Counted from the stretch's first letter, positions 44,636 through 60,569 are shown. The stretch is DNA of 64,000 bases from a virus (IMGVR_UViG_3300029194_000183:9970-73969); one strand, 5' to 3'. A program made the numbers and translations. Notes: generated by a model not told the origin, from the sequence alone.

Positions 44636-45000
44636 GGCTGTGTGCCGTCGCTGGTTTGGATGGCTGCGAGTCCCGATGCGGTGCGAACGAAAAGTTCCGG
44701 ATTCCAGAACCGTTTCCTGAACCTGTCCATGAGTTCCGGCGACAAGTCCGTGAAGTCTTCCTCACCCACCCCGCAGAGGAAGAAGCTACCTCGGATCGGC
44801 TGTTTCAGTTCCCGGATATACCGGCTGAACAGCTTATCCGTAAACAGTCCGTTGTCATCCGTGACCAGGGCGACCGGTTCCGGCCACGGGTATGTCGCCG
44901 TGATGCAGTCGCAGTCCAGCACCTTATAGTATTCTTCCAGCGTGGGCTGGATATCGATCTCCTTCGGATGTTCCATCGGCTCGACCAAAAGCACCTTCAT
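44629..45000 (-). CDS. DUF3846-like protein
   Basis: MKVLLVEPMEHPKEIDIQPTLEEYYKVLDCDCITATYPWPEPVALVTDDNGLFTDK...GSFFLCGVGEEDFTDLS matches the DUF3846 pattern. ATGA overlap with the upstream gene. Confidence 0.5.
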   Translation of the reverse strand: MKVLLVEPMEHPKEIDIQPTLEEYYKVLDCDCITATYPWPEPVALVTDDNGLFTDKLFSRYIRELKQPIRGSFFLCGVGEEDFTDLSPELMDRFRKRFWNPELFVRTASGLAAIQTSDGTQPE

Positions 45001-45456
45001 TCGACCCACCCCGCTTTCACGATTGCCCAGTCGGTCAGCGGTGTTGCTTCTCCAAGAAAGTCTTCCATCGCTTCGACCGTACCGCAGGTGTTGCACACCA
45101 TGATCTCTGCGTAGCGGCTGAGGGCTTGCTGCTGGTGGTCGTAACAGTCCGGCTCAGCGCCGCACCGTGGGCAACGTGGGCCCGCCTGTCGCGCCTTACC
45201 GAGGTGGTCGAGCGATTCCTTTACCTCGGTCTCGGACGCCACACGGTGGCAACTGTCCGCACCGTAGGCAACGTTCAGGCTGCCGCCTGTATCCCAGGAA
45301 ACCATCACATTGCCGGCATCGTCCACACCACGGCAGGTTCCCTGCGTGCCCAAGGCCGGTGCCTGGGCATCTTCCATTCGGTCCAGCACCACACGGCAGC
45401 CGACCGGGAACTGTGTCCGCAGAGTTTCTACGGTCTTTCTATCCGGAAATCTCATC
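44997..45456 (-). CDS. DUF4314-like protein with C-terminal Zn-ribbon
   Basis: FPVGCRVVLDRMEDAQAPALGTQGTCRGVDDAGNVMVSWDTGGSLNVAYGADS is the DUF4314 pattern, followed by CPRCG...CNTCG. The start overlaps the GGCT gene stop (ATGA), with an AAGGAGG RBS. Confidence 0.5.
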
Positions 45457-45934
45457 CCTGCACCTCCTTGATCATCTTCTCCGCGAGTTTCTTGTTGTTG
45501 GTACACTTCTTCAGTGCGCCCTCCAAGATGTGCATCGGGAAATGAAATGCCTTATAGCCATCGTGAAGGACTCGATAGTAGTACAGACTCGGCATTTTCT
45601 GCCCATAGTCGTGTTCCATGATATAGACCATGGCGGTGACGGTCATGGGCTCCGCATCCTTGCTCACCACCTCGACCGTCATATTTTCCTTGCGGTAGTA
45701 GTGCGGGAAGCCCTCATAGATGTCGAGGTTCTTCTCATCGCCAGCGGAGATTTCCCACACCAGGACCGGTGTGTTCTTTCCCTTGTTCGGCAGGATGGTC
45801 GCGCAGCCGTGGAAGGCCAGCTCCCAGTCTTCCAAAACAGCCTGGCCCACAATGCGGGCATCCGGGCACCGCTGTGCCATCTGCTCCACCGACAAGTTGC
45901 TGCCGTATGCGATGTAATACTTCTTTTCGTTCAT
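45452..45934 (-). CDS. GGCT/AIG2-like gamma-glutamyl cyclotransferase family protein (copy 1)
   Basis: YYIAYGSNL hallmark, then PVLVWEISAGDEKNLDIYEGFPHYY with the catalytic-Glu motif. Preceded by cassette R7. Confidence 0.7.
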   Translation of the reverse strand: MNEKKYYIAYGSNLSVEQMAQRCPDARIVGQAVLEDWELAFHGCATILPNKGKNTPVLVWEISAGDEKNLDIYEGFPHYYRKENMTVEVVSKDAEPMTVTAMVYIMEHDYGQKMPSLYYYRVLHDGYKAFHFPMHILEGALKKCTNNKKLAEKMIKEVQG

Positions 45935-45944
45935 AGTCGCTTGC

Positions 45945-46045
45945 TCCTTTCGTTTCCGCTGTTGTCTGGCGGTATGCTATATATGCCTCTGTTTTGCCCG
46001 AATAGCAAGGCCAATGTGCATCATATCCTGCACAATGATTTCCTC
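45945..46045 (-). promoter_or_regulatory. Promoter/leader cassette copy R7 (TTGCTA-N19-TATATA; more divergent)
   Basis: Minus strand reads attggccTTGCTAttcgggcaaaacagaggcaTATATAgcataccgccagacaacagcggaaacgaaaggagc. Confidence 0.4.
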
Positions 46046-46066
46046 ACAGGATCGGCAAAATTGTAC

Positions 46067-46608
46067 TCAGTCGATTTCTTTGAGGAACTCCACCGCTGCC
46101 GCCTTTCCGATGCTGGAAGACAGCCCACTGTGCAATGTATCTGTCGGGAATCCCCACTCCGTATACCCGTCTGCCAATAAGTCGAAGTACTCATGGCTGG
46201 GGCAGCCGAGCTGCCTTTCTTCGTGTAAGATGTATGCCATACAGGTTTTCAGCTTCTTCATCCGATGCCCATCCAGATTCCAGACGGGAAGCTGGAACTG
46301 CTTCTTGTAATAGTACCGAGGGCAGCCCTCATACCGATCCAGCAGCAGTTCATCAAACTCGGAAAGCAGCCATACCACAGCTGGGACGCTTTCATTGGCA
46401 TCCTGCTCGATGGTGGCGTAGCACCCAGTCTTGCTTTTCTTGAACAGGAGTCGGTATCCGTAGATTTCGGTAACACCGACCGGCACCGCATAGGGGCATC
46501 TGTGCCCCATCCGCTCCATGTCAAGGTTGCTGCCGTAGGCAAGATAGTACCGGGACGGCTTTCTGCTGATCCCACCCTTGTCGAACCGGAAGTGATCAAT
46601 CACCGACC
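46067..46608 (-). CDS. GGCT/AIG2-like cyclotransferase family protein (copy 2); start approximate (probable GTG)
   Basis: SRYYLAYGSNLDMERMGHRCPYAVPVG...PAVVWLLSEFDELLLDRYEGCPRYYY. The upstream part of the ORF overlaps the small gene 46596–46826. Confidence 0.6.
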
Positions 46609-46826
46609 TCACCGCCTTCCGCTGCGGAAAAGTCCACGCCGTCAAAGTCCTCAGCTTCCAGAACGATCTGTCCGTTGTGCCACCAGTCGCTGACCGCCTG
46701 GACGGCCTCATCCATCGTGGGTTCCTTGATCTCAGATTCGTTGACCTCGACCACCCGTTTGAGGGTCTCGGTGATGACCACCCGGAACGTTCTGCCGGGT
46801 GCGGTTTCTCTGGTTTCATTTTTCAT
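46596..46826 (-). CDS. Hypothetical small acidic protein (76 aa)
   Basis: Strong RBS GAAGGAGG precedes ATG MKNETRETAP. Sits between the amidoligase and GGCT copy 2. Confidence 0.4.
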   Translation of the reverse strand: MKNETRETAPGRTFRVVITETLKRVVEVNESEIKEPTMDEAVQAVSDWWHNGQIVLEAEDFDGVDFSAAEGGEVGD

Positions 46827-46896
46827 GGCGTATCGCCCTCCTTCTACCGCCTAAAGGGCGGTTGCCCGCCCGATAGGTGCCCGTGCAAGTCGGCGC

Positions 46897-47832
46897 TTAT
46901 GCGTTGCGCCAGCTTGCGTTGCCCTCCATATTCCGCAGAAGGATCTCCCGTGCTGTTTTGAACTCGTCCCCGATGAAACCCAGCCGAAGCATCCAGCACC
47001 GCATTGCGTATTTCTCGTTGTCAGTCTGCTGGGGCTTGGGGCTTGCGGTCTTCACCATCTTGGCAAGCTGGCTCATTGCGAGGCAAAGCTGGATGTAGGC
47101 TTTCAGCTCACCGGCGTGCAGTCCGTTCTGCTTGCCGTCGCTGGGGTCGGCAAACTGGAAAAGCCGGAATTCAATCGTGCCCTTGGTGAAGGTGGCGTGG
47201 AGGTTCAGCATATGGTATCGGCTTTCATTGTAATGTGCCGTTCTGCCGTAGTCTGCGTGGTTGCCGGCGTACCAGATGTCGGCAAGCTCAGTCATGGTCG
47301 TCGGCTTTCTCTTGTTCAGCTGGTCAAGGAATCGGGGGTCGACCACTCGGCAGTACTGTCCGGTTCTGCCTGCATCGATGCGAATCGCTCTGCCGATCTG
47401 TTCTTCGTGGGCGGCCATGATGTTGACCAGATTCCGCAGGGTCTTGGGGGTGTGGCTACCCTTGCCGATGTGGATGTGAACGCCGCATCCCCGGCTGGGG
47501 CTGGACTTTGCGCCAGCCTTGCGGAGCAGTCGGATGATTGCCTGCAAGGTCTCGATGTCCTCGTAGGTAAGGATGGGGGTCACCATCTCGCACTTTTCAG
47601 CTTCCGGTCCGTGGATGCTGATGTCTCGCTGGAATTTCCAAACCCTGCCCTGCTGGTCCTTGCAAGCCCAGCTCATGTACCCGTACTCGCCGGCTGCGTA
47701 CCATGCGGTCGTTCCGAAGAACTCGGCAACCTTTCTGGCGGCTTTCTCGCGGGTGATGTTGTTCATCTCAACCTCGACCCCGATGGTCTGCATCTTCATG
47801 GCTTCGATCTGCTCTCTGGTCTTATCGTTCAT
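46897..47832 (-). CDS. Amidoligase_2-family protein (glutamine-synthetase/GCS2-like fold), putative
   Basis: IGVEVEMNN...CEMVTPIL...GCGVHIHIG show the E-x-E and H-x-H metal/ATP-site-like motifs. RBS AAAGGAG precedes ATG MNDKTREQ. Preceded by cassette R8. Confidence 0.6.
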   Translation of the reverse strand: MNDKTREQIEAMKMQTIGVEVEMNNITREKAARKVAEFFGTTAWYAAGEYGYMSWACKDQQGRVWKFQRDISIHGPEAEKCEMVTPILTYEDIETLQAIIRLLRKAGAKSSPSRGCGVHIHIGKGSHTPKTLRNLVNIMAAHEEQIGRAIRIDAGRTGQYCRVVDPRFLDQLNKRKPTTMTELADIWYAGNHADYGRTAHYNESRYHMLNLHATFTKGTIEFRLFQFADPSDGKQNGLHAGELKAYIQLCLAMSQLAKMVKTASPKPQQTDNEKYAMRCWMLRLGFIGDEFKTAREILLRNMEGNASWRNA

Positions 47833-47849
47833 GGTGTTTATCTCCTTTT

Positions 47850-47945
47850 GTCTTGTTCTGTTCCCCTTGCGGTATGTGCATATTACCGTCATGTGGGGAG
47901 GATAGCAAGGCCATAAAGGGTCAAATAATCACCGATCATTCAAGG
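47850..47945 (-). promoter_or_regulatory. Promoter/leader cassette copy R8 (TTGCTA-N17-TAATAT)
   Basis: Minus strand reads tgtacacgatctttgccttgaatgatcggtgattatttgaccctttatggccTTGCTAtcctccccacatgacggTAATATgcacataccgcaagggg. Confidence 0.5.
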
Positions 47946-48063
47946 CAAAGATCGTGTACATTATGGCAAAAAACACACTTGATACTGTACATTTTCAGAG
48001 TTAATATCGGTACAATGGAAGAAGCTCTCTCTTATCCGGCGGTCCCCATAAGGGGTCAGGAGC

Positions 48064-49215
48064 TTACGCTCCCGCCTCCTGTGCCTGGGGTGCGCCGTCT
48101 GCCCCACAGTCGGGCTGTGTGGGGGCTTCCGCTGCCGCTTCGGCCGTTTCCTCGGCGGCAGAAACGCCGCCGTGTGCCGCCTGTTTTGCGGCTTTCAGGG
48201 CATCTCGCTTAGCCTTTTCCTTAACCCGGAACTTTTCGGCATCTTCCTCGGTGCGGAATGCCGCATGACCGGAAAGGTTCTGCATCAGGAGTTTGCGGAT
48301 GGTCTTGTGTTCATCTCCGTTCAGACCCAGTCGGATCAGCCAGATGCGGAGTGCGTACTTCTCATTGGCATCGTTGATGGTCTTTGCCTGGATTCGCTTC
48401 TGAGCGATTGCCATCCGGTTCATGGCGGCGCAGAGTTCCGTGTAGGCACGGACCTTCTCCTGCGTCAGCGGACCGGCAAAAGCCAGGCTGATCTTCTCCG
48501 CCGTGATCTGGATGCCGGTCATGCCGGTGGTACCGGCACCCAGGCGGTATTCTTCCAGCTCATCCAGCATTTCGCTCACCGTATGGGGCGTTGCCTGTTC
48601 CAGTGCGTCCAGAAGTCCCTGCGACACCGTGAAGTTCGTACCCATCGCTTTGTTCAGCAGAGGGCCTCGGCTGTACATGAGGTTCAGGAAATTCCGCAGG
48701 CTCTGGGCGGTATGCCCGGACATCGGCAGGCTGATGGTCAGCTCATCCACATCCTGCAAGGTCGGCTGTTCGGTCGGAGCAGGTGCCTCATCCGCATCGG
48801 TGTCATTCACAGTGTCCATCGGCTTGTTCTCGTCCACCGGTTCCTGAGCTTCCGGGGATTCCACGGCAGTTGTGTCCGGTTCCTCGGTGGGCTGGATATC
48901 CTCGGTGATGTCCACGGTCTCATCCGACCCTTCGCACTCCGATTCCGAGCTCTCCTCGCAGGCGGTTTCGGTTTCCGAGGTCTCCGGGGTCTCCGCGCCT
49001 TCCTCACGGATAATGCCCTCGTCCAGCAGCGTCCGGATGATCTCCGGCGCAGCGTTATCTTCGATCACAAGCGTTCCCTCCTTTTCTACTGTGTAACTGC
49101 CGACGATGTAAGCGCAGCGCGGCATGAAAGTGTACCGGGAATGAAGCCCGGTCAACTCCATCAGGCGGCTTACCAGAACCTTGCGGTCATCAATATTCAG
49201 TGCGTACTTTTTCAT
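48064..49215 (-). CDS. Amidoligase-paralog protein with acidic N-terminal region (possibly non-catalytic)
   Basis: The C-terminal 200 aa (SGHTAQSLRNFLNLMYS...NEKYALRIWLIRLGLNGDEHKTIRKLLMQNLSGHAAFR) align with the C-terminal half of 46897–47832 (GSHTPKTLRNLVNIMAA...NEKYAMRCWMLRLGFIGDEFKTAREILLRNMEGNASWR). It lacks the N-terminal E-x-E region. Preceded by cassette R9. Confidence 0.45.
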   Translation of the reverse strand: MKKYALNIDDRKVLVSRLMELTGLHSRYTFMPRCAYIVGSYTVEKEGTLVIEDNAAPEIIRTLLDEGIIREEGAETPETSETETACEESSESECEGSDETVDITEDIQPTEEPDTTAVESPEAQEPVDENKPMDTVNDTDADEAPAPTEQPTLQDVDELTISLPMSGHTAQSLRNFLNLMYSRGPLLNKAMGTNFTVSQGLLDALEQATPHTVSEMLDELEEYRLGAGTTGMTGIQITAEKISLAFAGPLTQEKVRAYTELCAAMNRMAIAQKRIQAKTINDANEKYALRIWLIRLGLNGDEHKTIRKLLMQNLSGHAAFRTEEDAEKFRVKEKAKRDALKAAKQAAHGGVSAAEETAEAAAEAPTQPDCGADGAPQAQEAGA

Positions 49216-49234
49216 GGCTTTGTGCCCCTTTCTT

Positions 49235-49335
49235 TGTTTTCGGTAGCACATATATCGCTCTGAATCGATGAAATAGCAAGGCCATTTCTCGACATTCTTC
49301 ATATTCGACCTTTTACACGATCCGTACAAAACACG
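49235..49335 (-). promoter_or_regulatory. Promoter/leader cassette copy R9 (TTGCTA-N19-TATATG; divergent)
   Basis: Minus strand reads ggatcgtgtaaaaggtcgaatatgaagaatgtcgagaaatggccTTGCTAtttcatcgattcagagcgaTATATGtgctaccg. Confidence 0.4.
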
Positions 49336-49419
49336 ACTGTGCAAGATCATCCGATATGTACGCCCACGGTATCACGGGGTAGCCTTTACCTCGTAATACA
49401 GTGGGCCATTTTATTGGTT

Positions 49420-50238
49420 TCAGCCGACTCTTGCTTCCAGCGCAGCGATGCGCTGCTCAAACTCAGCCGTCTTATTTTCCAGAGCTTCCAGACGCTCGGC
49501 CTCGGTCAGGGGCTTTTTCTCCTCGTCAAGGATCAGGTAGCGTTCCATGACGTAACCGGGAATGGTCTCATAAGTCACAGCGCACCAGCCATCTTCCTGC
49601 CCGATCACGTCCAGCCGGGCACCGTTGGGAATCCAGGCAAGACGGTCAGCGGTTCTTTCGGGAGCCTGCCGCAGACTCAATCTTCCGCCCGTAACGGTTG
49701 CCTTGCAATGAACTGCCAGCATATTGACCTTTTCCATCTCTACCTTCTCCTCTCGATTACTTTTATAGTTGATGCCTTTCAGCCGGCCGCCGAACTTCCA
49801 CCTGCCCAGAACTGAGTCACGGTGGATGCTGTTTCCTTCCACGCTGGTGGAGCAATGGGTGATCTCCAGCGGATGCACTCTTGTGATCACGCCCACATGG
49901 TAGTAGTCCCGCAGGTCTCCGGTACAGTTTACACCTCCCGACTTGTACCGGTCCGGCAAACTGTAGCTGCTGTCGCCGGGGTTCCGGGCTTTGAATACGA
50001 TCTCACCCACGAACAAGTGTGCGGTTTTGAGTTTCACAAAGTCCGCCATCTGTTTCCGGGCTGCGTAGTTACTGCCGTGGTAGCCGTTCCAGCTTCCACC
50101 GGCTCTGCGGACTGCGCCGATGATAAGACCAATGCAGTCACAGGTACCATCCGTACCGCTGCCGCCGATGCGATAGTCTGGTTTCGTAGCACAGATGGTC
50201 TCGAGCTGCTCAAGAAAAGCAGTCAGGGTGATGCTCAC
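49420..50238 (-). CDS. NlpC/P60-like papain-fold cysteine peptidase with SH3b-like domain and C-terminal coiled coil
   Basis: GTDGTCDCIGLIIGAV carries the Cys nucleophile context, and ...YYHVGVITRVHPLEITHCS the His. The SH3b-like segment reads GGRLSLRQAPERTADRLAWIPNGARLDVIGQEDGWCAVTY. GTG start overlaps the MTase stop (GTGA). Confidence 0.5.
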   Translation of the reverse strand: MSITLTAFLEQLETICATKPDYRIGGSGTDGTCDCIGLIIGAVRRAGGSWNGYHGSNYAARKQMADFVKLKTAHLFVGEIVFKARNPGDSSYSLPDRYKSGGVNCTGDLRDYYHVGVITRVHPLEITHCSTSVEGNSIHRDSVLGRWKFGGRLKGINYKSNREEKVEMEKVNMLAVHCKATVTGGRLSLRQAPERTADRLAWIPNGARLDVIGQEDGWCAVTYETIPGYVMERYLILDEEKKPLTEAERLEALENKTAEFEQRIAALEARVG

Positions 50239-52583
50239 TCCGATTCACTCCCATTCTCAGGCGATCCGGCCACCCAGACGATGCCGGACAGTACAAAAAA
50301 GACACACGGCAGTGCGACACCATTGCCCCAGAGCTTATACTCTGCGGCATCCGAATACGGGTCTGCCAGCCATTTTCGGATCTGCTTTTCCGTCTTCGGC
50401 TTCTTGGCGTGGGTCACCAGTCTGCGGTGCGTTTCAAACACATCCTGCCAGAAAGCGATTTCATCCTCGGTGGGATTCTCAGTTTCGATGTCATGGCACC
50501 ACCAGTCCGGGAAACCCTGCAGCCGAGCGCACTCAGTCGGGGTCAGACGGCGAACCGTATAGGACACGGGGATCGGCTGTGCGTCCGGGTTATCGATGAC
50601 CAGCCGGTCATTAAAAGCGTCCTGCCCGTTGAAGCCGCTGGGATGCGCCCCGGTCGCCACCGTTCCCGACACGCCATCGTTCAGGTGCGGCACCGGCGCT
50701 ATGGTGGTGGGGTCTTTAAAGTCCCGGGCCATAAGGGTGGGAGATACATTCTCCTCGACCCTCATGAAGGAGCCGGTGGTCATGGCGTAAACATCTTCCG
50801 GTGCGCAGACTGCGTGACGGTCAGTGGCATCCAGCGTAAAGCAGACATCTTCGTTGATGCCGTCACCTTGCGGACCATTCTCGTCTTTGCGGCCGATCAT
50901 GTTGCCCTGCAGCACGAAGGTCTGCATCTGGTCGCTTCGGGTCGCCATGAGCGCACCGGACTTTCCATGCAGGTCGATCAGCTCATTGCGCTGATTCACA
51001 TGGAATGCCGTCACGTCATCCGGCTGCGCCACAAAGGTCTGCTGTTTCATTCCCGGTTGTGCAGACAGCGAACCCGCCGTCTCGCCCAGATTCCGGACTT
51101 CATCCCGCTGGTTCTGGGTAAAGGCTACTGCCGGAGCCCCGCCATGGGTGCAGGCCAGAGGCGGTGCCACCTGTTCGTCTACCGTGCAGTTCGACTTGCC
51201 TCCACCCTGATCCACGCAGACAACAGGTTCACAGATACACAGCCCACCCTGGTTACAGGTCGGGTCACCGCCGCTGCGATCAAGCGTCCGGGAAGTTTCC
51301 GCTTCATAGAATCCGCTGTGGGGGTTATCCGACATCATGGAATGGCTGGCCTTGGAGCAGACACCGTAGCACTTAGGCACGAACACGGTCTGGTCGTTGT
51401 TGCAGCCGAGGGTAGCAGATTTTTCCTCCTGCCAGATAGCACCTTTGCCGCCACCCTCACATCCAGAACGAATTTTCAGTGTGACTGCAGGTGAGTTTTC
51501 CACCTCTTTCCCGCTGTTTTCCACGCCATCCAGAACCAGCGGAACATTGCCGCCGCCCGTACCGCATCTACTGGTCAGAGTCTGTACCTTGCCATCCTTG
51601 GAAATTTTCACTCGACTGTCAGTCGGATGATTTTCCAAAGCGATGGCGGCAGGCACGACTCCGGCCCGGAGAGTGGGAGAACGTTCTTTCTCATATCCGA
51701 TGCTCCTCGCATTGGCGGAGTGTTCGGTGCAAAAACCTGCGGATTCCAAAACGCAAGGCGGGTGATGTGCCTCTGCACGGAGGGTGGAGGTCACCTCCTC
51801 GGTCACATCCATCCTCTCCCCGCCCTGATCGTTCAGGCAGATTCTTCCGCAGCAGCCTGCCGTTCCAGTGCCGCCTTCAGCACCGGAGGCAGCTCTTTGC
51901 CACGTACGGAAGCTCTCCGCAGAATACCCAGACACGCCTTCGGACTCAAATAATACTTTTGGAGCACCGTGGTCTGCAAAATCTGCGACAAGGTAGATGC
52001 GTTTTCTCCTTTGGGGTACGCCCCACCATTGAGCGTCAAGAACTCGATATGCGACGCTCCATCCGTCTCCCAGATAGTAATCTGCATCGGGCCAGCCTTT
52101 TTTGTCAGGCGCAGGCACCTCGGTGGACGGTTCCTTAACACCGATGACGGCCTCGAGGACTGCTTTGAAGTCCTGCCCTTTGTTGGACGAGAAGGCGCCT
52201 GGGACATTCTCCCATACGATAAATCTTGGTTTTGCTCCATTGGTCTTACACCTCATTTCCTTCACGATTCGAATCGCTTCATAGAACAGGCTGGACCGTG
52301 AACCATCCAGACCGTCTCTTTTACCGGCAATGGACATATCCTGACAAGGACTGCCAAAGGTGATGATATCCACCGGCGGCAAGTCTGAGCCGTTGATGGC
52401 GGACACATCCCCGTAGTGCTTCACCTCCGGCAGACGCTTGGTCGTGACCCGGATGGCGAAGGGTTCCACTTCGCTGCTCCACAGCGGCGTGATACAACCT
52501 GTCAGTAAACCGCCCAAAGGGAAACCCCCGGAGCCATCAAAGAGGCTGCCGAGGGTCAGTTGGATATTCGATTCGGTGCTCAT
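50235..52583 (-). CDS. DNA (cytosine-5)-methyltransferase with an expanded multi-module target-recognition region
   Basis: Motifs I FDGSGG, IV GSPCQDMSIAG, VI ENVPG, VIII QRRKRIY, IX RRLTPTECARLQGFPDWW, X GNGVALP. About 470 aa between motifs VIII and IX hold at least 6 segments of the form (S/T)(P)TL....G.GGG..P(L/V). Confidence 0.85.
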   Translation of the reverse strand: MSTESNIQLTLGSLFDGSGGFPLGGLLTGCITPLWSSEVEPFAIRVTTKRLPEVKHYGDVSAINGSDLPPVDIITFGSPCQDMSIAGKRDGLDGSRSSLFYEAIRIVKEMRCKTNGAKPRFIVWENVPGAFSSNKGQDFKAVLEAVIGVKEPSTEVPAPDKKGWPDADYYLGDGWSVAYRVLDAQWWGVPQRRKRIYLVADFADHGAPKVLFESEGVSGYSAESFRTWQRAASGAEGGTGTAGCCGRICLNDQGGERMDVTEEVTSTLRAEAHHPPCVLESAGFCTEHSANARSIGYEKERSPTLRAGVVPAAIALENHPTDSRVKISKDGKVQTLTSRCGTGGGNVPLVLDGVENSGKEVENSPAVTLKIRSGCEGGGKGAIWQEEKSATLGCNNDQTVFVPKCYGVCSKASHSMMSDNPHSGFYEAETSRTLDRSGGDPTCNQGGLCICEPVVCVDQGGGKSNCTVDEQVAPPLACTHGGAPAVAFTQNQRDEVRNLGETAGSLSAQPGMKQQTFVAQPDDVTAFHVNQRNELIDLHGKSGALMATRSDQMQTFVLQGNMIGRKDENGPQGDGINEDVCFTLDATDRHAVCAPEDVYAMTTGSFMRVEENVSPTLMARDFKDPTTIAPVPHLNDGVSGTVATGAHPSGFNGQDAFNDRLVIDNPDAQPIPVSYTVRRLTPTECARLQGFPDWWCHDIETENPTEDEIAFWQDVFETHRRLVTHAKKPKTEKQIRKWLADPYSDAAEYKLWGNGVALPCVFFVLSGIVWVAGSPENGSESE

Positions 52584-53350
52584 ACAGCCTCCTCTCCGAG
52601 CATCTGCTCTTTTGCTTTCAGGTAGAAGTCCCTGGACACTTCAAATCCGTAGCTGTCACGTCCCAGTTCTCTGGCCGCCCGGAGCGTTGCACCGCTGCCG
52701 GCGCAAGGATCAATGACCACATCTCCGGGATCGGTAAAGATCTCGATCAGGCGTTTCAGCACGGACACCGGTTTCTGAGACGGATGGATCTTTGGATAGT
52801 CCTTGCCATCCCGTTTCCAGTCAAACCAGTTGAAGATCATGTGGGACTTGCCGTCTTCACCGACGTTGTTGAACTTCGGGAGCTTGCCCCGGTAGAGGAC
52901 CAGCGCATACTCCGTTGCACCCACGATCTTCATGTTGGCTTTCAAGACCTGCGGGCTGTAGTTCTTACAGAAGGTCAGCGGGATATAGTTCTTGAAGCCG
53001 TACTTCTCAGCTTCCGTGATGACCTTGGGGATCTGCTGGAACGCACAGAACACGATCATGCACGGTGCGCCCTTTTCCCCTTTCATGGGTTCTTTCTTCA
53101 GCAGCCGGTTACAGAAATGGAAATATTCTGCGATATTGAAAGTGAAGTCGGTGTTGAATGCCGCTTTCCGGGCCTTATCGCTCTCTCCATTCCGGTTATC
53201 TCCGTCTACATACCAATCCGGGCGGCTGGCGTAGAAGTCCGACCCGATGTTATACGGGATGTCGGCGATCACCAGCTGTGCCTTGGGGATGTTGTAGGAC
53301 TTGAAGTTCTGGAAGTTGTCATGGAACAGGACACATCTGGGTTCAGTCAT
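52580..53350 (-). CDS. DNA methyltransferase (N6-adenine/N4-cytosine class, DPPY-type)
   Basis: QLVIADIPYNIG motif IV variant; SAM-binding motif VIDPCAGSGATL near the C-terminus. RBS AGGAGG precedes ATG MTEPRCV. Confidence 0.75.
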   Translation of the reverse strand: MTEPRCVLFHDNFQNFKSYNIPKAQLVIADIPYNIGSDFYASRPDWYVDGDNRNGESDKARKAAFNTDFTFNIAEYFHFCNRLLKKEPMKGEKGAPCMIVFCAFQQIPKVITEAEKYGFKNYIPLTFCKNYSPQVLKANMKIVGATEYALVLYRGKLPKFNNVGEDGKSHMIFNWFDWKRDGKDYPKIHPSQKPVSVLKRLIEIFTDPGDVVIDPCAGSGATLRAARELGRDSYGFEVSRDFYLKAKEQMLGEEAV

Positions 53351-54611
53351 CTGCGCCCTCCTGTTCCGGCTGGAAGGACGCCACCTCATCGAACTTCAGC
53401 TTTTGACCGTCACGGAGGACATACACATCCTCGTAGCGACCTTCGCTGTGTTCGATATAGCGCTTGACGATAACATCCACGAACTTGGGGTCAAGCTCAA
53501 TGCCCCGGCACACCCGGTCAGTCTCCTCACAGGCGATCAAGGTCGAGCCGCTGCCGAGGAAGGGGTCAAGGACGATGCCGTTGGTCATGGTGGAGTTGCG
53601 GATGGGATAGCTCATCAGGCCGATGGGCTTCATAGTCGGGTGGTCCTTGTTTGCTTTGGGACGGTCGTACTCCCAGATGGTGGTCTGCTTACGGTCAGAG
53701 TACCACTGGTGCTTGCCCTTCAGTTTCCATCCATAGAGGCAGGGTTCATGCTGCCACTGATAGGGACTGCGACCCAGCACCAGAGCATTCTTTTTCCAGA
53801 TACAGCACCCGGACAGATAGAATCCCGCATCCTTGAATGCCTTTCGGAAATTCAGACCTTCCGTGTCGGCGTGGAAAATGTAGATGGAACCATCATCTGC
53901 CAGATGACCGTGCATCTGCTTGAACGCCGCCAGCAGGAACTCGTAGAATTCCGAGTCGCCCATGTTGTCGTTCAGGATCTTGCCAGCCGTTTCTTCCACG
54001 TCCACATTGTACGGGGGATCGGAAAGCACAAGGTTGGCCTTCACGCCGTCCATCAGGGTGTCGTAGCATTCGGCCTTGGTGGAATCGCCGCACAGAACTC
54101 TGTGCTTGCCCAGCATCCAGAGGTCGCCCGCTTTGGAAAAGCACGGCTGTTTCAGCTCGGACTCCACATCGAAGTCATCTTCTTTGACCTCTTTGTTGTG
54201 GACCTTGTTGAACAGCGTCTCGATCTCAGGCGGGTCAAAACCCGTCTTGCCCAGGTCGAAGTTGGATTCCTCGATGTCTTTGAGCAGGTCGGCCAGCAGG
54301 GTGTCATCCCATGCGCCCGTGATTTTGTTGAGCGCAATGTTCAGCGCCTTTTCTCTGGTCTTGTCGATGTCCACCACCGCACACGGAACTTCCGTGTAGC
54401 CCAGATCCATGGCAACGGTCAAACGCTGATGGCCGCCAATAATTGTCATGTCGGCATTGACCACCAGCGGGTCGGCAAACCCGAACTCCGTAATGGAGTT
54501 CTTAATCTTCTCGTACTCCTTATCCCCCGGCTTCAGTTTTTTCCGGGGATTGTATGCGGCCGGCTTGAGTACGGACACCGGCAGCATTTTCAGTTCAGCG
54601 GTTGCTTTCAT
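53343..54611 (-). CDS. ParB-like nuclease domain fused to an N6/N4 DNA methyltransferase
   Basis: The N-terminus LPVSVLKPAAYNPRKK...GGHQRLTVAMDLGYTEVPCAVVD is ParB/Srx-like. MTase motif IV is VLSDPPYNVD and motif I is LDPFLGSGSTLIACE. RBS GAAGGAGG. Confidence 0.8.
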   Translation of the reverse strand: MKATAELKMLPVSVLKPAAYNPRKKLKPGDKEYEKIKNSITEFGFADPLVVNADMTIIGGHQRLTVAMDLGYTEVPCAVVDIDKTREKALNIALNKITGAWDDTLLADLLKDIEESNFDLGKTGFDPPEIETLFNKVHNKEVKEDDFDVESELKQPCFSKAGDLWMLGKHRVLCGDSTKAECYDTLMDGVKANLVLSDPPYNVDVEETAGKILNDNMGDSEFYEFLLAAFKQMHGHLADDGSIYIFHADTEGLNFRKAFKDAGFYLSGCCIWKKNALVLGRSPYQWQHEPCLYGWKLKGKHQWYSDRKQTTIWEYDRPKANKDHPTMKPIGLMSYPIRNSTMTNGIVLDPFLGSGSTLIACEETDRVCRGIELDPKFVDVIVKRYIEHSEGRYEDVYVLRDGQKLKFDEVASFQPEQEGADD

Positions 54612-54622
54612 GTAGTCCTCCT

Positions 54623-54856
54623 TCACACGCACATGACCTCAGAGAACGGCACGAAAAAGGAGCCGAACTGAAAGCCCGACTCCAACTCATCGCTATCCCC
54701 GCCCATCTCCGACTGCGGCTTTTCCGTAATCGGATACCACTCCGGGTTCTCCCCGTTCATGGAGGCAAGGACCCTGTCCTCTGCATGATCGATCTCATGT
54801 ACGCAGATGCCCCCGGTGTTGAACATCGGGAACACGCCGATTGTCTTATTCTCCAT
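54623..54856 (-). CDS. Hypothetical small protein (77 aa)
   Basis: RBS AAAGGAG 9 nt before ATG MENKTIGVF. Confidence 0.35.
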   Translation of the reverse strand: MENKTIGVFPMFNTGGICVHEIDHAEDRVLASMNGENPEWYPITEKPQSEMGGDSDELESGFQFGSFFVPFSEVMCV

Positions 54857-55148
54857 CGCTATGTTCTCCTTTCGCCCTGCCCTTGTTGGCACAGGCACGG
54901 CTGCAATATTTTCTCGGAAGCCCGTACTGGTGACGGTAGGAAAACTCCCTGCCGCACACCGGGCAGACCTTTGACCGCACGGTCTTCCAGTTCTGCGGTC
55001 GCGGATGGGTGTTGTTCCACTTGGAGCGGCATTCCGGGGAGCAAAACTTTCGTGGTCTGCCCCGGTGGTTCGGAACGATGGCAGTTCCGCACTGCGGACA
55101 GAAGGCAAACGCCATGTCCTTGACCATTTCCGCTGTGTAATCCTGCAT
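54846..55148 (-). CDS. Zinc-ribbon protein (two CxxC-x15-CxxC units)
   Basis: CPQCG...CSPEC and CPVCG...CSRAC. Confidence 0.4.
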   Translation of the reverse strand: MQDYTAEMVKDMAFAFCPQCGTAIVPNHRGRPRKFCSPECRSKWNNTHPRPQNWKTVRSKVCPVCGREFSYRHQYGLPRKYCSRACANKGRAKGEHSDGE

Positions 55149-55547
55149 CTGTCCTCACCTGCCCCTCATTTTTCGCCGTTTCTGTGGCGTTTTCAGTGGA
55201 AAATCTCAAAAAGCATACGAAAAGAGGCAAAGTGAAAATCGGACCTGCCCCGCCGGGTTACATTGTTTTTGCGGCGTCCGATTTTCGACTGCCTCTGTTC
55301 CTCCCGGAACAAGCTAAAGCGTATGAAAAGTTCTGTATTGCAAGGTTTTTCACACGCTTTGGTTCGTTTCGGGGGAAAACAAAAGGCACCGGAGCGTTCA
55401 CCCCGATGCCCTCATCTTCACCTTGTTCATTTTGCGCCGTTAATTTCGGGACCCCCGGCCTATGAATTTTGCGTTTTTTCACACGAAAGGGGCCACCGGT
55501 CTCCGTGTGACTTCACTGTAGAGAAGTGACCCCGGCCCCGGCGGGGG

Positions 55548-55907
55548 TCAGTATTGGTACACCGGGTTGATGTCTTTGGTCAGAGTCTTGCGGTCATGGC
55601 ATTGCTTACAAAGCGGCTGCCAGTTAGCATCGTCCCAGAAAAGTCTGGGATCGCCACGGTGCGGTGTGATGTGGTCCACCACGGTGGCTTTCGTGTATTT
55701 TCCCTGCCTCATGCACTCGGCGCAGAGCGGATGGGCTTGGAGATACTGCTTGCTTATTTTTTGCCACTGTCGTGTGTAGCCCCGCTTTCCGGCAGAGCGC
55801 GTCACTTCCGGGTGCAGCGGCAGGTGCTTCTCACAGTAGAGGATGCCGGGTTCAACCAGCTCCGGGCAGCCGGAGTGTCGGCATGGCACCTTGGGTCTGC
55901 GGGGCAC
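55548..55907 (-). CDS. HNH endonuclease
   Basis: CRHSGCPELV...YCEKHL...HPLCAECMRQGKYTKATVVDHITPHRGDPRLFWDDANWQPLCKQCHDRKT shows the HNH/Zn-finger motif with catalytic His and Asn. Confidence 0.75.
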   Translation of the reverse strand: MPRRPKVPCRHSGCPELVEPGILYCEKHLPLHPEVTRSAGKRGYTRQWQKISKQYLQAHPLCAECMRQGKYTKATVVDHITPHRGDPRLFWDDANWQPLCKQCHDRKTLTKDINPVYQY

Positions 55908-55910
55908 GGG

Positions 55911-56978
55911 TCATTCCTCCCACGGCAGACCGGGCTTGCCGAAGTGACCGTAGGCACTGACCTTGTTGTAGTCAACGTCCAGCAGACCCAGACGCTTGAT
56001 GATGCCCTGCGGAGTCAGGTCGTAGCTGTCACGGACGTAGGCTTCGATGAACTCCGGTGCTTCATGCTCCGTACCGAAGCACTCCACCGACACGCCCACC
56101 GGCTGTACCACGCCGATGGCGTAGGCCAACTGGACTTCACACTTGTCAGCGTAGCCGGCCTGTACGATGTCCTTGGCGATCTTCCGCGCCATATATGCTG
56201 CGGAGCGATCCACCTTGGTGGGGTCCTTGCCGGACAGTGCGCCACCGCCCATTCGACCGATGCCGCCGTAAGTATCACACGCCAGCTTCCGACCGGTCAC
56301 ACCGCAGTCGGCATAACTGCCGCCCAGCACGAACCGGCCGGTGGGATTGACGAGCTTCTGGAAGTCACCGTCCAGTCCGTACTCACAGGCGGCAAGCACC
56401 ATCATGGATTCGATAATGTGGCGGAAGTCGCTGACCTCCACGTCCGGGCTGTGCTGCACGGAGCAGAGGAACGTAGTGATTCGGCCGGTGTCGTAGTCGT
56501 AGCTGACCTGCGCCTTGGCATCTGCCCGGAACATCTTGGACGGATGGTTCTTCAGCAGTTGCAGGAACTTGGTGGCGACCATGTAGGGGATCGGCATCTG
56601 TTCGGCGGTCTCGTTGGTGGCGTAGCCGTACATGATGCCCTGGTCACCGGCACCGCCCTTATCCACGCCCAGTGCAATATCCGGCGACTGCATATCGACC
56701 AGGATGCCGATGCGGAGCAGTTCCCGGAAATCAAAGCCCATCTTGTCTGCACCGATACGGGTGATGACCTCATGGACGATCTGCTGGTAGTTGGGCTGGT
56801 AATCGGTGGTGACCTCGCCAGCGATAAAGAGCTGGCTGCGTTTCAGCAGACACTCGGTTGCCACACGGGCGTTCTTGTCGTGCTGGAGGATGTCGGTCAC
56901 AATGGCATCTGCGATCTGGTCGCAGATCTTGTCCGGGTGGCCGTTGCTGACCTGCTCACAGGTGATAATCTTGCTCAT
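55911..56978 (-). CDS. metK: S-adenosylmethionine synthetase (methionine adenosyltransferase) homolog, phage-encoded
   Basis: GHPDKICDQIADA, GAGDQGIMYGYATNE, GGGALSGKDPTKVDRSAAYMARKIAKDIV and DTYGG are MetK signature motifs. 355 aa, slightly shorter than bacterial MetK. Confidence 0.9.
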   Translation of the reverse strand: MSKIITCEQVSNGHPDKICDQIADAIVTDILQHDKNARVATECLLKRSQLFIAGEVTTDYQPNYQQIVHEVITRIGADKMGFDFRELLRIGILVDMQSPDIALGVDKGGAGDQGIMYGYATNETAEQMPIPYMVATKFLQLLKNHPSKMFRADAKAQVSYDYDTGRITTFLCSVQHSPDVEVSDFRHIIESMMVLAACEYGLDGDFQKLVNPTGRFVLGGSYADCGVTGRKLACDTYGGIGRMGGGALSGKDPTKVDRSAAYMARKIAKDIVQAGYADKCEVQLAYAIGVVQPVGVSVECFGTEHEAPEFIEAYVRDSYDLTPQGIIKRLGLLDVDYNKVSAYGHFGKPGLPWEE

Positions 56979-59859: not shown

Positions 59860-59873
59860 GTTCTCGCCTCCTT

Positions 59874-60254
59874 CTAGGTAGTAGTGTCGGCAGTGCCCAT
59901 GTTAAAGAACACCGCAATGGCCTGCTCCACTTCCCGCTGCTTGGCGGTAGAGGTCAGGCTGCCCAGCTTGTTCAGCAGGGCGTTCTTTCCGATGGTCGTG
60001 ACCTGCTCTGCCAGTGCGACAGAGTTGCGCAGATACGCATGGTCATTGATCATCTGGCAGTCTGCCTCTGCGATCTGGATGTGCGTGGGCAGACCCAGCT
60101 TCTTCTGCACGGTGGTCAGCGGGATCACCGTGAGGGTGCTGGAAAAGCGGTTCGCCACATCGTTGCTAATGACCAGCACAGGGCGGCTGCCGCTTTGCAC
60201 GGAACTGCCGTAATGGTCGCCCAGCTCGGCAAACCAGATTTCAAACCGCTGCAC
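59874..60254 (-). CDS. MazF/PemK-fold protein (type II toxin-like endoribonuclease fold); start uncertain
   Basis: MVQRFEIWFAELGDHYGSSVQSGSRPVLVISNDVANRFSSTLTVIPLTT...PTHIQI...NSVALAEQVTTIGKNALLNKLGSL matches the MazF/PemK pattern (G-D-I-w-x-d, RP-vLViSND, P-T). No recognisable cognate antitoxin is found upstream. Confidence 0.55.
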   Translation of the reverse strand: MQRFEIWFAELGDHYGSSVQSGSRPVLVISNDVANRFSSTLTVIPLTTVQKKLGLPTHIQIAEADCQMINDHAYLRNSVALAEQVTTIGKNALLNKLGSLTSTAKQREVEQAIAVFFNMGTADTTT

Positions 60255-60569
60255 CATCTGCTGCGGTGTTTCCTGCTGCGGTATGTCCTGCCGCAACGCT
60301 TCCTTCTGGGCAGACTTTTCAGATCGGGCCGTGTGCTGCTTGCGGAGCAGCCGCCCTTTCTGGTTGATGTATTTATTCACATGAGGTCTTGAACGACCGT
60401 TCTTATTCTTGCGACCCAATGAAAACTCACCTCTTTTTCCCGGTCGATAGACCTTGGGTTGATGTAAAAGTAAAAAGCCGGACAGAGAAATCACAGCTTT
60501 GGCGGCGAAGCAATCGCCGCAACAAAAAAGCCGAAGCAAAGTCATTTCTGACCGCCTCGGCAATACGCT

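What the first reader, a model, noticed from the sequence alone, without database searches (positions are those of the whole stretch)
50235..52583. 782-aa cytosine-5 methyltransferase with about 470 aa of reiterated target-recognition modules (likely multispecific)
All ten canonical C5-MTase motifs are present. The variable region between motifs VIII and IX is 4–5 times longer than in monospecific enzymes. It contains at least 6 repeats of the TL...G.GGG..P(L/V) signature that marks individual target-recognition domains in the multispecific Bacillus phage MTases (SPR, phi3T, rho11s type). One phage enzyme may therefore methylate many different sequences, giving broad protection against host restriction. 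That would be an unusually large set of target-recognition domains.
Basis: partly seen in the sequence, partly recalled or inferred. Interest (0 to 1): 0.7.

Follow-up and report, generated by a model that had tools for sequence, protein, structure and literature searches.

The report
Gut-phage cytosine methyltransferase with stacked recognition cassettes
A human-gut phage encodes one DNA cytosine methyltransferase carrying about a dozen short, swappable target-recognition cassettes instead of one, which probably lets a single enzyme mark many different DNA sequences and so evade many bacterial restriction systems, although this has not been tested experimentally.

Summary
The ORF is real (50235-52583, minus strand, 782 aa). 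It is a canonical SAM-dependent C5-MTase with a ~476-aa region between motifs VIII and IX, 4.8 times that of M.HhaI.

That region holds 12 short units (23-50 aa), each with a T-L-type core. TL occurs 8 times against 1.8 expected.

Comparative evidence supports independent TRD cassettes:
- Near-identical phage enzymes differ by clean loss or gain of whole units: 17 architectures among 62 enzymes.
- Units change order in more distant relatives.
- Several unit types stacked here (M1, M3, M4/5, M10, M11) also occur in 400-480-aa relatives that carry only two units.
- Every unit has dN/dS 0.02-0.17, as constrained as the catalytic core.
- The SPR/phi3T/rho11s/H2 enzymes show the same architecture. 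One of their TRDs matches unit M10 (p=0.005).

The catalytic core is only ~23% identical to the Bacillus enzymes, so this is a separate lineage.

AlphaFold2 was uninformative on the array, and no target sequence could be assigned. Intein, foreign domain and CmoX-type carboxymethyltransferase were excluded.

Verdict: probably a multispecific orphan anti-restriction MTase, a much-expanded variant of a known kind. It is abundant in Ca. Heliusvirales gut phages and uncharacterised in the literature I could search.

The parts
51987..52583 (-). Catalytic domain, N-terminal part (aa 1-199): motifs I (FDGSGG), IV (PCQ, catalytic Cys80), VI (ENV), VIII (QRRKR)
   Evidence: AF2 pLDDT 80-95. dN/dS 0.106.
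51825..51986 (-). M0 (aa 200-253): conserved start of the variable region followed by a Gly-rich linker. Present in 132 of 150 representatives.
   Evidence: dN/dS 0.72, the only relaxed segment. Extra cassettes insert after about aa 247 in relatives.
51756..51824 (-). Unit M1 (aa 254-276), core VTSTLRAEAHHPP
   Evidence: Absent in P0072 and P0089. An M1-like unit is one of two TL units in the 433-aa P0242. dN/dS 0.17.
51636..51755 (-). Unit M2 (aa 277-316), core RSPTLRAGVVPAAIAL
   Evidence: A TL-to-TL deletion in P0021 removes 268-304. Found after M7 in P0131. dN/dS 0.027.
51528..51635 (-). Unit M3 (aa 317-352), core KVQTLTSRCGTGGGNVPLV
   Evidence: Present in 95 of 150 representatives. An M3-like unit is one of two TL units in the 401-aa P0269, which aligns colinearly with the HhaI TRD. 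Resembles the phi3T/rho11s/H2 TRD (p=0.03). dN/dS 0.052.
51378..51527 (-). Units M4+M5 (aa 353-402), cores AVTLKIRSGCEGGGKG and SATLGCNNDQTVFV. In representatives that have both they lie adjacent, so probably one cassette.
   Evidence: The recognition region of the 413-aa P0226 is M4/5-like. dN/dS 0.067 and 0.027.
51228..51377 (-). Unit M6 (aa 403-452), core TSRTLDRSGGDPTCNQGG
   Evidence: Present in 93 of 150 representatives. dN/dS 0.043. A 33- or 40-aa cassette inserts just before it in relatives.
51132..51227 (-). Unit M7 (aa 453-484), core VAPPLACTHGGAPAV. Optional.
   Evidence: Absent in many close relatives. hhalign to M8 95% and to M4/5 95%. dN/dS 0.021, based on few synonymous sites.
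51042..51131 (-). Unit M8 (aa 485-514), core TAGSLSAQPGMKQQTFV
   Evidence: Paralogue of M9. hhalign to M3 82%. dN/dS 0.12.
50925..51041 (-). Unit M9 (aa 515-553), core KSGALMATRSDQMQTFV. Optional; bracketed by a 19-nt direct repeat.
   Evidence: Absent in P0033, P0105 and 11+ IMG/VR enzymes. Direct repeat at 50907-50925 and 51024-51042, spacing 117 nt. An M9-like unit sits after aa 280 in L077.
50790..50924 (-). Unit M10 (aa 554-598), core EDVCFTLDATDRHAVCA
   Evidence: The most widespread unit, in 98 of 150 representatives. Matches the TRD common to SPR, phi3T, rho11s and H2 (EPAFTVNTIDRHGVAI), empirical p=0.005. dN/dS 0.033.
50688..50789 (-). Unit M11 (aa 599-632), core VSPTLMARDFKDP
   Evidence: Present in 65 of 150 representatives. 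It is the last unit before motif IX in several small relatives: P0183, P0257, P0262. dN/dS 0.13.
50568..50687 (-). Unit M12 (aa 633-672), core VSGTVATGAHPSG. Optional.
   Evidence: Absent in P0029, P0095, L024, L039 and L041. dN/dS 0.079.
50235..50567 (-). Catalytic domain, C-terminal part (aa 673-782 plus stop): motif IX (RRLTPTECARLQGFP) and motif X (GNGV, Asn754)
   Evidence: AF2 pLDDT 70-94. dN/dS 0.094.
52580..53389 (-). Neighbouring N6/N4 amino-methyltransferase. Its stop overlaps the C5-MTase start (ATGA).
   Evidence: PF01555 E=1e-24. ORF table.
53343..54632 (-). ParB-N domain fused to an N6/N4 methyltransferase
   Evidence: PF02195 and PF01555.
55911..56978 (-). Phage-encoded S-adenosylmethionine synthetase (MetK type), likely supplying the methyl donor
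   Evidence: PF00438, PF02772 and PF02773. Present in 58.9% of Heliusvirales genomes (PMC11283538).

Best explanation
The gene encodes an orphan, phage-borne, SAM-dependent DNA cytosine-5 methyltransferase.

Its single catalytic core is served by a tandem array of about 10-12 short target-recognition cassettes. The range is 6-12 if some units work in pairs. Each cassette is built around a conserved Thr-Leu core, like the TL motif of the M.HhaI recognition domain and the TRDs of the Bacillus-phage multispecific enzymes.

Inferred mechanism: each cassette in turn presents its own recognition loops to the DNA beside the shared catalytic pocket, so the one polypeptide methylates several unrelated short sequences.

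Inferred biological role: during lytic growth the enzyme acts with two neighbouring amino-methyltransferases and a phage SAM synthetase. Together they pre-methylate progeny genomes and protect them against many Type II restriction systems in the phage's Clostridia hosts.

Cassettes are gained, lost, duplicated and moved by recombination. One case here is bracketed by a 19-nt direct repeat. The result is a population-level combinatorial repertoire.

Shown here: the enzyme class, the cassette architecture, cassette mobility, and selective constraint on every cassette.
Inferred: that cassettes confer separate specificities, how many are active, which sequences they target, and the timing and role in anti-restriction.
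For: 1. Canonical C5-MTase. PF00145 E=2.7e-41 and HhaI E=2e-17. Catalytic PCQ, ENV, QxRxR and GN(Asn) are all present.

2. Size and content of the variable region. It is 476 aa and contains no other Pfam domain. It has 8 TL against 1.8 expected and 12 TL-type cores. Self-similarity exceeds shuffles. Units are linked by hhalign at up to 95% probability.

3. Cassette gain and loss. Enzymes 86-96% identical in shared regions differ by clean 23-40-aa block indels that each contain one TL core. There are 17 architectures among 62 IMG/VR phage enzymes. Every extra block carries its own [S/T/P]-T-[LVIM] core. All four presence/absence combinations occur for M7/M12 and for M9/M12.

4. Reordering. Unit order differs between representatives: P0131, P0138, P0129. 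An M9-like unit is transposed in L077.

5. Size continuum. The VIII-IX distance in the clade runs from 117 to 701 aa. The smallest members have the M0 scaffold plus two TL units. Five of the query's unit types appear among them: M3-like (P0269), M4/5-like (P0226), M1-like (P0242), M10+M11 (P0262). P0269 aligns colinearly with HhaI recognition loop I, the TL motif and motif IX.

6. Selection. dN/dS is 0.02-0.17 for each of M1-M12, against 0.09-0.11 for the catalytic core.

7. Reference enzymes. SPbeta/phi3T, SPR, rho11s and H2 show the same pattern: an invariant core with block indels of one-TL TRDs. The TRD common to all four matches M10 (p=0.005) and another matches M3 (p=0.03).

8. Context. 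Two further DNA MTases and a SAM synthetase are adjacent, and no nuclease was recognised nearby. Close relatives lie in prophages of different bacterial orders, and a 709-aa homologue is spread at about 95% DNA identity across Bacilli and Clostridia. That fits elements that must survive many restriction backgrounds.
Against: - No methylation data exist for this protein or any relative that I could find.
- AlphaFold2 gave no confident fold for residues 215-680 (pLDDT 20-30). It also failed for the recognition region of a minimal 416-aa relative. There is therefore no structural support that each unit can dock as a TRD.
- Sequence similarity of units to characterised TRDs is weak. There are no PDB hits at E<=10. 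A profile built from the reference TRDs alone did not exceed shuffles. Only M10 survives correction for five tests.
- The smallest family members carry two TL units, not one. Some units may therefore work in pairs, which would roughly halve the number of specificities.
- The phage genome still strongly avoids many palindromes, including GGCC at O/E 0.54. Methylation clearly does not cover everything.
- rho11s shows that intact-looking TRDs can be inactive after a single substitution (combined with my memory of the 1991 Nature paper by the Trautner laboratory).
Confidence: 0.7

Rival explanations
1. Oligo-specific enzyme. Only one to three cassettes are active. The other TL units are structural supports, halves of two-unit TRDs, or recently silenced pseudo-TRDs like those of rho11s.
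For: - Minimal relatives always carry two TL units.
- M4+M5 always co-occur and M1+M2 usually do.
- rho11s carries an intact-looking TRD differing by G->E from the H2 copy. From memory, that copy is known to be inactive.
- Many palindromes are still avoided in the genome.
Against: - Every unit has dN/dS 0.02-0.17, equal to or lower than the catalytic core. That is not expected for silenced remnants.
- Units are lost singly without loss of their neighbours.
- Unit order is not fixed, which argues against a fixed structural scaffold.
Confidence: 0.17
2. Low-specificity or processive methyltransferase. The repeat array is a general DNA-binding or sliding module, and the enzyme methylates very short or degenerate contexts, in the manner of a GpC- or CpG-type or near-non-specific enzyme.
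For: - The AF2-disordered, Gly-rich array could act as a flexible DNA-binding tail.
- A phage SAM synthetase suggests a heavy demand for methyl donor.
- Orphan mobile-element MTases that modify highly degenerate sites are known (PMC12707154).
Against: - A generic binding tail would not need 20 or more distinct, individually conserved unit types that each keep a TRD-like TL core.
- Several of these unit types occur in normal-sized relatives that carry only two units.
- The genome keeps strong avoidance of several C-containing palindromes. That would be pointless under near-global cytosine methylation.
Confidence: 0.08
3. Not a methyltransferase but a C5-MTase homologue that installs another group, such as CmoX-type carboxymethylation. 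The neighbouring amidoligases would then elaborate that group into a hypermodified base.
For: Two amidoligase-family genes and two GGACT genes lie directly downstream. CmoX with an amide ligase is a described phage system (PMC12783734).
Against: According to that paper, CmoX has an SPPC motif, an Arg replacing HhaI Asn304, and a CmoA Cx-SAM synthase neighbour.
- The query has SPCQ and GNG (Asn754) (register).
- Its neighbour is a MetK-type SAM synthetase.
- No CmoA was seen among the 30 ORFs scanned.
- The ligases here are Amidoligase_2 (GS-like), not the AMP-forming CmoY type.
Confidence: 0.03
4. The extra 470 aa is an unrelated insertion (intein, domain swap or assembly artefact), not recognition modules.
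For: AF2 gives no fold for the region. Some relatives do carry non-TRD inserts: a ~240-aa helical block in P0128 and an HTH-like block in P0149.
Against: - No Pfam domain other than PF00145 at E<=1.
- The same architecture appears in thousands of independent contigs.
- Purifying selection acts throughout.
- The region is colinear with the HhaI TRD in small relatives.
Confidence: 0.01

Closest known systems
Multispecific C5-MTases of Bacillus temperate phages (M.SPRI, M.Phi3TI/M.SPBetaI, M.Rho11sI, M.H2I)
   Same: - Phage-encoded orphan C5-MTase.
- One catalytic core with motifs in canonical order.
- The enlarged VIII-IX region is made of contiguous ~35-55-aa cassettes, each with one [ST]-x-T-[LIV] core.
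- Relatives differ by whole-cassette indels.
- M10 resembles their shared TRD and M3 resembles another.
   Different: - Separate lineage: the core is ~23% identical, and SPbeta's own >=1e-30 relatives do not include this clade.
- 12 units here against 2-4 there.
- Units are shorter on average (23-50 aa).
- Hosts are gut Clostridia, not Bacillus.
- There is much larger population-level cassette diversity.
- No biochemical data exist.
M.(phi)BssHII (multispecific C5-MTase with several specificities; Trautner/Walter laboratory, cited in PMC8936443)
   Same: A single C5-MTase with several target specificities encoded by separate TRDs. This is from my memory of the literature; the paper is not held.
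   Different: From memory it has about five specificities, with TRDs at separated locations. Here all units are contiguous between motifs VIII and IX.
Monospecific M.HhaI / M.HaeIII
   Same: Same catalytic fold and motifs. A TL-centred recognition region lies just before motif IX. A small relative aligns colinearly through HhaI loop I, the TL motif and motif IX.
   Different: HhaI has one ~100-aa variable region with one TL. The query has ~476 aa with 12 TL-type cores.
Near-non-specific orphan MTases of mobile elements (for example M.EcoGII)
   Same: The proposed biological role is the same: broad protection of mobile DNA against many restriction systems by one enzyme (PMC12707154).
   Different: Those enzymes reach breadth by relaxed specificity in an adenine MTase. 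Here breadth would come from multiplying discrete recognition cassettes in a cytosine-5 MTase.
CmoX cytosine-C5 carboxymethyltransferase (Synechococcus phage S-B43)
   Same: A phage C5-MTase homologue with a ParB-domain protein and ligase genes in the neighbourhood.
   Different: The query lacks the SPPC motif, the Arg at the HhaI-N304 position and a CmoA neighbour.

Membership tests
DNA cytosine-5 methyltransferase (PF00145) | Conserved motifs in canonical order, with the catalytic Cys in PCQ (IV), ENV (VI), QxRxR (VIII), motif IX and GN (X) | tested here: met
   Score 142.5 bits against a cut-off of 22. Motifs I, IV, VI, VIII, IX and X were located individually.
DNA cytosine-5 methyltransferase (PF00145) | Uses SAM to make 5-methylcytosine | not testable with these tools
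   Inferred from Asn754 at the HhaI-N304 position and canonical PCQ, and from the contrast with CmoX features.
Multispecific C5-MTase (functional class, SPR/phi3T type) | Enlarged variable region between motifs VIII and IX, composed of several contiguous, non-overlapping TRDs | tested here: met
   476 aa with 12 TL-cored units delimited by natural indels. The reference enzymes have the same build.
Multispecific C5-MTase (functional class, SPR/phi3T type) | TRDs are independent: one can be removed or added without destroying the enzyme | tested here: inconclusive
   Natural variants lacking or gaining single units are abundant and under purifying selection, which implies they are functional. 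Activity itself was not measured.
Multispecific C5-MTase (functional class, SPR/phi3T type) | Each TRD confers a distinct target sequence; two or more sequences are methylated | not testable with these tools
   Needs methylome mapping. No published data were found.
Multispecific C5-MTase (functional class, SPR/phi3T type) | Phage-borne orphan with no cognate restriction endonuclease | tested here: met
   The window is a complete temperate tailed phage. Neighbours are MTases, a SAM synthetase, amidoligases and a primase-helicase, with no nuclease family detected. Several neighbouring ORFs have no family hit.
SPR/phi3T/rho11s/H2 protein family (orthology) | Close sequence relationship of the catalytic core to the Bacillus-phage enzymes | tested here: not met
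   23% identity over motifs I-VIII. It is not among SPbeta's E<=1e-30 phage relatives. It works like them but is a different lineage.
CmoX carboxymethyltransferase | SPPC motif, Arg at the HhaI-Asn304 position, CmoA neighbour | tested here: not met
   SPCQ, GNG (Asn754), a MetK neighbour, and no CmoA among the 30 ORFs scanned.

The most novel reading that the evidence does not exclude
Most of the ~10-12 cassettes are active, which would make this the most multispecific DNA methyltransferase known (eight or more distinct motifs from one polypeptide). Gut Heliusvirales phages and other Firmicutes mobile elements would then share a pool of 20 or more interchangeable recognition cassettes. They would shuffle these by recombination as an evolvable, combinatorial anti-restriction library. 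The array would be intrinsically flexible, with one cassette at a time docking on the catalytic core. No structure of that mechanism has been solved for any multispecific MTase, as far as I know.
Probability: 0.3. Interest if true: 0.8.

Novelty: new variant of a known kind. Interest (0 to 1): 0.62.

Why it matters
If it is multispecific, this family is a natural, very large library of short modules with the form "one cassette, one DNA motif", attached to a common catalytic core.

- **Recognition code:** correlating cassette content with methylated motifs across hundreds of natural variants could decode C5-MTase sequence recognition. That question has been open since the Bacillus-phage work of the 1980s-90s.
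- **Structure:** it could clarify how several TRDs share one active site.
- **Phage ecology:** it would explain how one of the most widespread human-gut phage lineages (Ca. Heliusvirales) copes with the diverse restriction systems of Clostridia, and why these phages carry a SAM synthetase. In the literature both genes are so far filed as "auxiliary metabolic genes".
- **Practical use:** such enzymes could pre-methylate DNA to transform genetically recalcitrant gut anaerobes.

Tried and rejected
- **AlphaFold2 of the full protein** (36-sequence MSA) and of a minimal 416-aa relative (64-sequence MSA). The catalytic core was confident but the recognition region had pLDDT 20-43 in both. The models are uninformative there, so I did not run fold searches on them.
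- **Module sequences against the PDB**. No hits at E<=10.
- **A scoring profile built only from the five Bacillus reference TRD cores**. The top positions fall on unit cores, but nothing exceeds the family-wise shuffle threshold. The signal is mostly the TL dipeptide, so I did not count it as evidence.
- **Gapped BLAST coverage map against representatives**. Alignments bridge across units and hide the modularity. I replaced it with per-unit Smith-Waterman.
- **DNA-level repeats**. Only the 19-nt repeat around M9 is meaningful. The units are old and diverged, not recent tandem duplications.
- **Intein or foreign domain.** Rejected.
- **CmoX-type carboxymethyltransferase.** Rejected on three published discriminators.
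- **Original TRD-definition papers** (PMC450048, PMC1171429, PMC3837797). These are not held. TRD sizes, the specificities of the reference enzymes and the rho11s pseudo-domain are therefore cited from memory.
- **Target prediction from palindrome avoidance**. Suggestive only: CCGG, GCGC, AGCT, TCGA and GCNGC are not avoided. It cannot be tied to individual units.


Full report
**What is there**

The ORF at 50235-52583 (minus strand) starts with ATG and encodes 782 aa. It is a clear cytosine-5 DNA methyltransferase: Pfam PF00145 E=2.7e-41, TIGR00675 E=2.1e-40, and M.HhaI as best solved relative at E=2e-17.

The diagnostic motifs are in canonical order:

| Motif | Sequence | Residues |
|---|---|---|
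| I | FDGSGG | 15-20 |
| IV | PCQ | 79-81 |
| VI | ENV | 125-127 |
| VIII | QRRKR | 191-195 |
| IX | RRLTPTECARLQGFP | 678-692 |
| X | GNGV | 753-756 |

Query residues 200 and 676 correspond to HhaI residues 170 and 270. The variable region is therefore about 476 aa against about 100 aa, a ratio of 4.8. No other Pfam family matches at E<=1, so there is no intein or recognisable foreign domain.

**The repeats**

The variable region contains 8 TL dipeptides against 1.77 expected (p<2e-4). The 306-aa core has one. [ST]x[TSAP]L occurs 6 times against 1.0 expected. Counting SL, AL, PL and TV variants gives 12 cores, at aa 267, 304, 335, 368, 391, 433, 475, 505, 544, 583, 616 and 641, spaced 23-42 aa apart.

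Ungapped self-similarity is well above shuffles: 24-aa windows scoring >=30 number 21 against 1.7+/-2.7. One pair is an obvious paralogue (491-518 against 530-557). Profile-profile comparison of unit sub-alignments links the units: M7-M8 95%, M4/5-M7 95%, M3-M8 82%, M2-M11 70%. At the DNA level the units are diverged. The only meaningful repeat is a 19-nt direct repeat spaced 117 nt apart, which brackets unit M9 exactly.

**Evidence that the units are independent cassettes**

Thousands of relatives exist in gut metagenomes. Five observations bear on independence.

1. Whole-unit indels. Enzymes 86-96% identical in shared regions differ by clean 23-40-aa block indels. Each indel spans one TL core. 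Residues 254-276, 268-304, 453-484, 515-553 and 633-670 can be absent, and 28- or 40-aa blocks can be inserted.

2. Many architectures. Among 62 full-length enzymes from IMG/VR phage contigs there are 17 architectures. Each extra block carries its own [S/T/P]-T-[LVIM] core: IASTLTAAYG, VSSTIGENCGMSTGRN, APTVNAAYGMGGNN, VANTLNTFD, VSPTLTKQNAGGN, AATLSANDG and VEPTMLSRG. All four presence/absence combinations occur for M7/M12 and for M9/M12. An M9-like unit sits at a different place in L077.

3. Shuffling. In 50%-identity cluster representatives, the units occur in 10 to 98 of 150 proteins and in different orders. P0131 has M3-M4-M5-M6-M7-M2-M10-M11, and P0129 has M10 before M8.

4. A size continuum. 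The VIII-IX distance runs from 117 to 701 aa in the same clade. The smallest members consist of the M0 scaffold plus two TL units, and five of the query's unit types appear among them:

| Enzyme | Length | Query-type units identified |
|---|---|---|
| P0269 | 401 aa | M3-like (plus a second TL unit) |
| P0226 | 413 aa | M4/5-like |
| P0242 | 433 aa | M1-like (plus a second TL unit) |
| P0262 | 479 aa | M10+M11 |
| P0183 | 416 aa | M3+M11 |

P0269 aligns colinearly with M.HhaI through recognition loop I, the TL motif and motif IX. The match is weak (domain i-E about 5).

5. Selection. Nei-Gojobori dN/dS over 52 sequences gives 0.02-0.17 for every unit M1-M12 and 0.066 for the array as a whole. 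The catalytic core gives 0.09-0.11. Only the Gly-rich M0 linker is relaxed, at 0.72. Decayed repeats or mere spacer are therefore excluded.

**Comparison with the reference multispecific enzymes**

I retrieved M.SPBetaI/Phi3TI, M.SPRI, M.Rho11sI and M.H2I from the phage collection. Their alignment shows the same picture: a near-invariant core, and a variable region differing by whole ~35-55-aa blocks, each with a single [ST]-x-T-[LIV] core.

The block common to all four is ...EPAFTVNTIDRHGVAI. All four methylate GGCC, which I state from memory. This block aligns with query M10 (...EDVCFTLDATDRHAVCA) with empirical p=0.005. The phi3T/rho11s/H2 block (VSPTLTTMGGGH) aligns with M3 at p=0.03. The other three blocks are not significant.

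The catalytic cores are only about 23% identical. The query clade is not among SPbeta's strong relatives. This is therefore a functional analogue in a different lineage, not a family member.

**What did not work**

AlphaFold2 modelled the catalytic domain confidently but gave pLDDT 20-30 for residues 215-680. It did no better on the recognition region of the minimal 416-aa relative, even with a more diverse alignment. The low confidence is a limitation for this clade and carries no weight against TRDs.

Units have no PDB sequence matches. A profile made only from the reference TRD cores did not beat shuffles. No target sequence could be assigned.

**Context**

The window is a complete temperate tailed phage. 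It encodes two serine recombinases, an endolysin, tail proteins, the major capsid protein, portal, TerL and TerS. Its closest annotated relatives are Ca. Heliusvirales gut phages.

The MTase is translationally coupled to an upstream N6/N4 MTase. A ParB-MTase fusion precedes that, and a MetK-type SAM synthetase lies nearby. No nuclease was recognised nearby.

The Heliusvirales papers list the C5-MTase (67% of genomes) and the SAM synthetase (59%) only as common auxiliary genes. My literature searches found no description of this architecture.

**Rival considered late**

A phage C5-MTase homologue, CmoX, installs carboxymethylcytosine, which an amide ligase then extends. Two amidoligases lie just downstream of the query. 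However, the query lacks all three published CmoX discriminators. It has SPCQ and not SPPC. It has Asn and not Arg at the HhaI-N304 position. It has no CmoA among the 30 ORFs scanned.

**Conclusion**

The interpretation, a multispecific anti-restriction methyltransferase, is the best-supported reading at about 0.7 confidence.

The main uncertainty is how many of the 12 units are separate, active specificities. The smallest relatives carry two units. M4+M5 always travel together and M1+M2 usually do. I therefore give a range of 6-12 cassettes, and some may be silent.

The genome still avoids many palindromes (CTAG, CGCG, ACGT, GGCC and several 6-mers) while not avoiding CCGG, GCGC, AGCT, TCGA or GCNGC. 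Protection by methylation is therefore partial. The non-avoided sites are candidate targets, but that is only a lead.

Relative to characterised enzymes, which have 2-5 specificities, this is a large expansion. Within its own metagenomic clade it is typical of the upper range.

Noticed in passing
window 52580-56978 (minus strand): There is a methylation island. A ParB-N/N6-N4 MTase fusion (53343-54632), a second N6/N4 MTase (52580-53389) and the C5-MTase have overlapping stop/start codons. A phage MetK-type SAM synthetase lies at 55911-56978.
   Followed up: partly
window 44997-50238 (minus strand): Directly downstream of the MTase lies a cluster of unknown role. It contains an SH3-domain ORF whose N-terminal part looks NlpC/P60-like by eye (49420-50238), two amidoligase-family genes (48064-49350 phrog_2443; 46897-47892 PF12224), two GGACT/AIG2 genes (46067-46819; 45452-45934) and a DUF4314 gene (44997-45506). 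An amidoligase gene and a gamma-glutamyl cyclotransferase gene also follow the MTase in Heliusvirales phage NatCom_991 (L001). Whether it acts on DNA, for example in hypermodification, or on peptides is open.
   Followed up: partly
window 51825-51986 (aa 200-253 of the MTase): The Gly-rich M0 linker has dN/dS 0.72 with an unusually low dS (0.14). Every other part of the gene is at 0.02-0.17. It is also a hotspot for cassette insertion, after about aa 247.
   Followed up: no
whole window: Strong avoidance of some palindromes: CTAG O/E 0.21, CGCG 0.39, ACGT 0.45, GGCC 0.54, GATC 0.67, TGCA 0.67, and GTGCAC and GGATCC absent. There is no avoidance of CCGG (499 sites), GCGC, AGCT or TCGA, and GCNGC is abundant (479). 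The non-avoided set may mark methylated targets.
   Followed up: partly
L087 (Blautia faecis DFI.3.66) and L088 (Faecalibacterium intestinale CLA-AA-H281): An 83%-identical homologue of the MTase is 99.9% identical at the DNA level between isolates of two different bacterial orders, with 100% identical 500-bp flanks. This indicates either a very broad-host-range prophage or cross-contamination.
   Followed up: partly
L118, L120-L133, L135: A 709-aa multi-cassette homologue (52% identical to the query) is present at about 92-96% DNA identity, flanks included, in Bacillus, Lysinibacillus, Heyndrickxia, Niallia, Clostridium, Hathewaya, Tissierellaceae and Dehalobacter genomes. This looks like a very broad-host-range mobile element. 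Its motif IV reads SPCT and not SPCQ.
   Followed up: partly
P0128 (aa ~170-410) and P0149 (aa ~420-520): Some family members carry non-TRD inserts inside the variable region. P0128 has a ~240-aa helical block right after motif VIII, and P0149 has an HTH-like block in the middle of the cassette array.
   Followed up: no
window 57451-60563 (minus strand): A D5-type primase-helicase with an NrS-1 polymerase HBD domain (57451-59859) is followed by a 229-aa protein whose C-terminal half is a PemK/MazF-like toxin domain (59874-60563).
   Followed up: no
window 2129-4090 and 7477-8988 (minus strand): Two large serine recombinases (integrase/invertase type) lie close together at the left end of the window. 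The Heliusvirales paper mentions a common DNA invertase possibly linked to host-range switching.
   Followed up: no
P0033 (alignment A1): This NCBI-sourced homologue has two internal duplications, one in the motif IV region and one across units M4-M6. This is either an assembly artefact or a real tandem duplication of cassettes.
   Followed up: no
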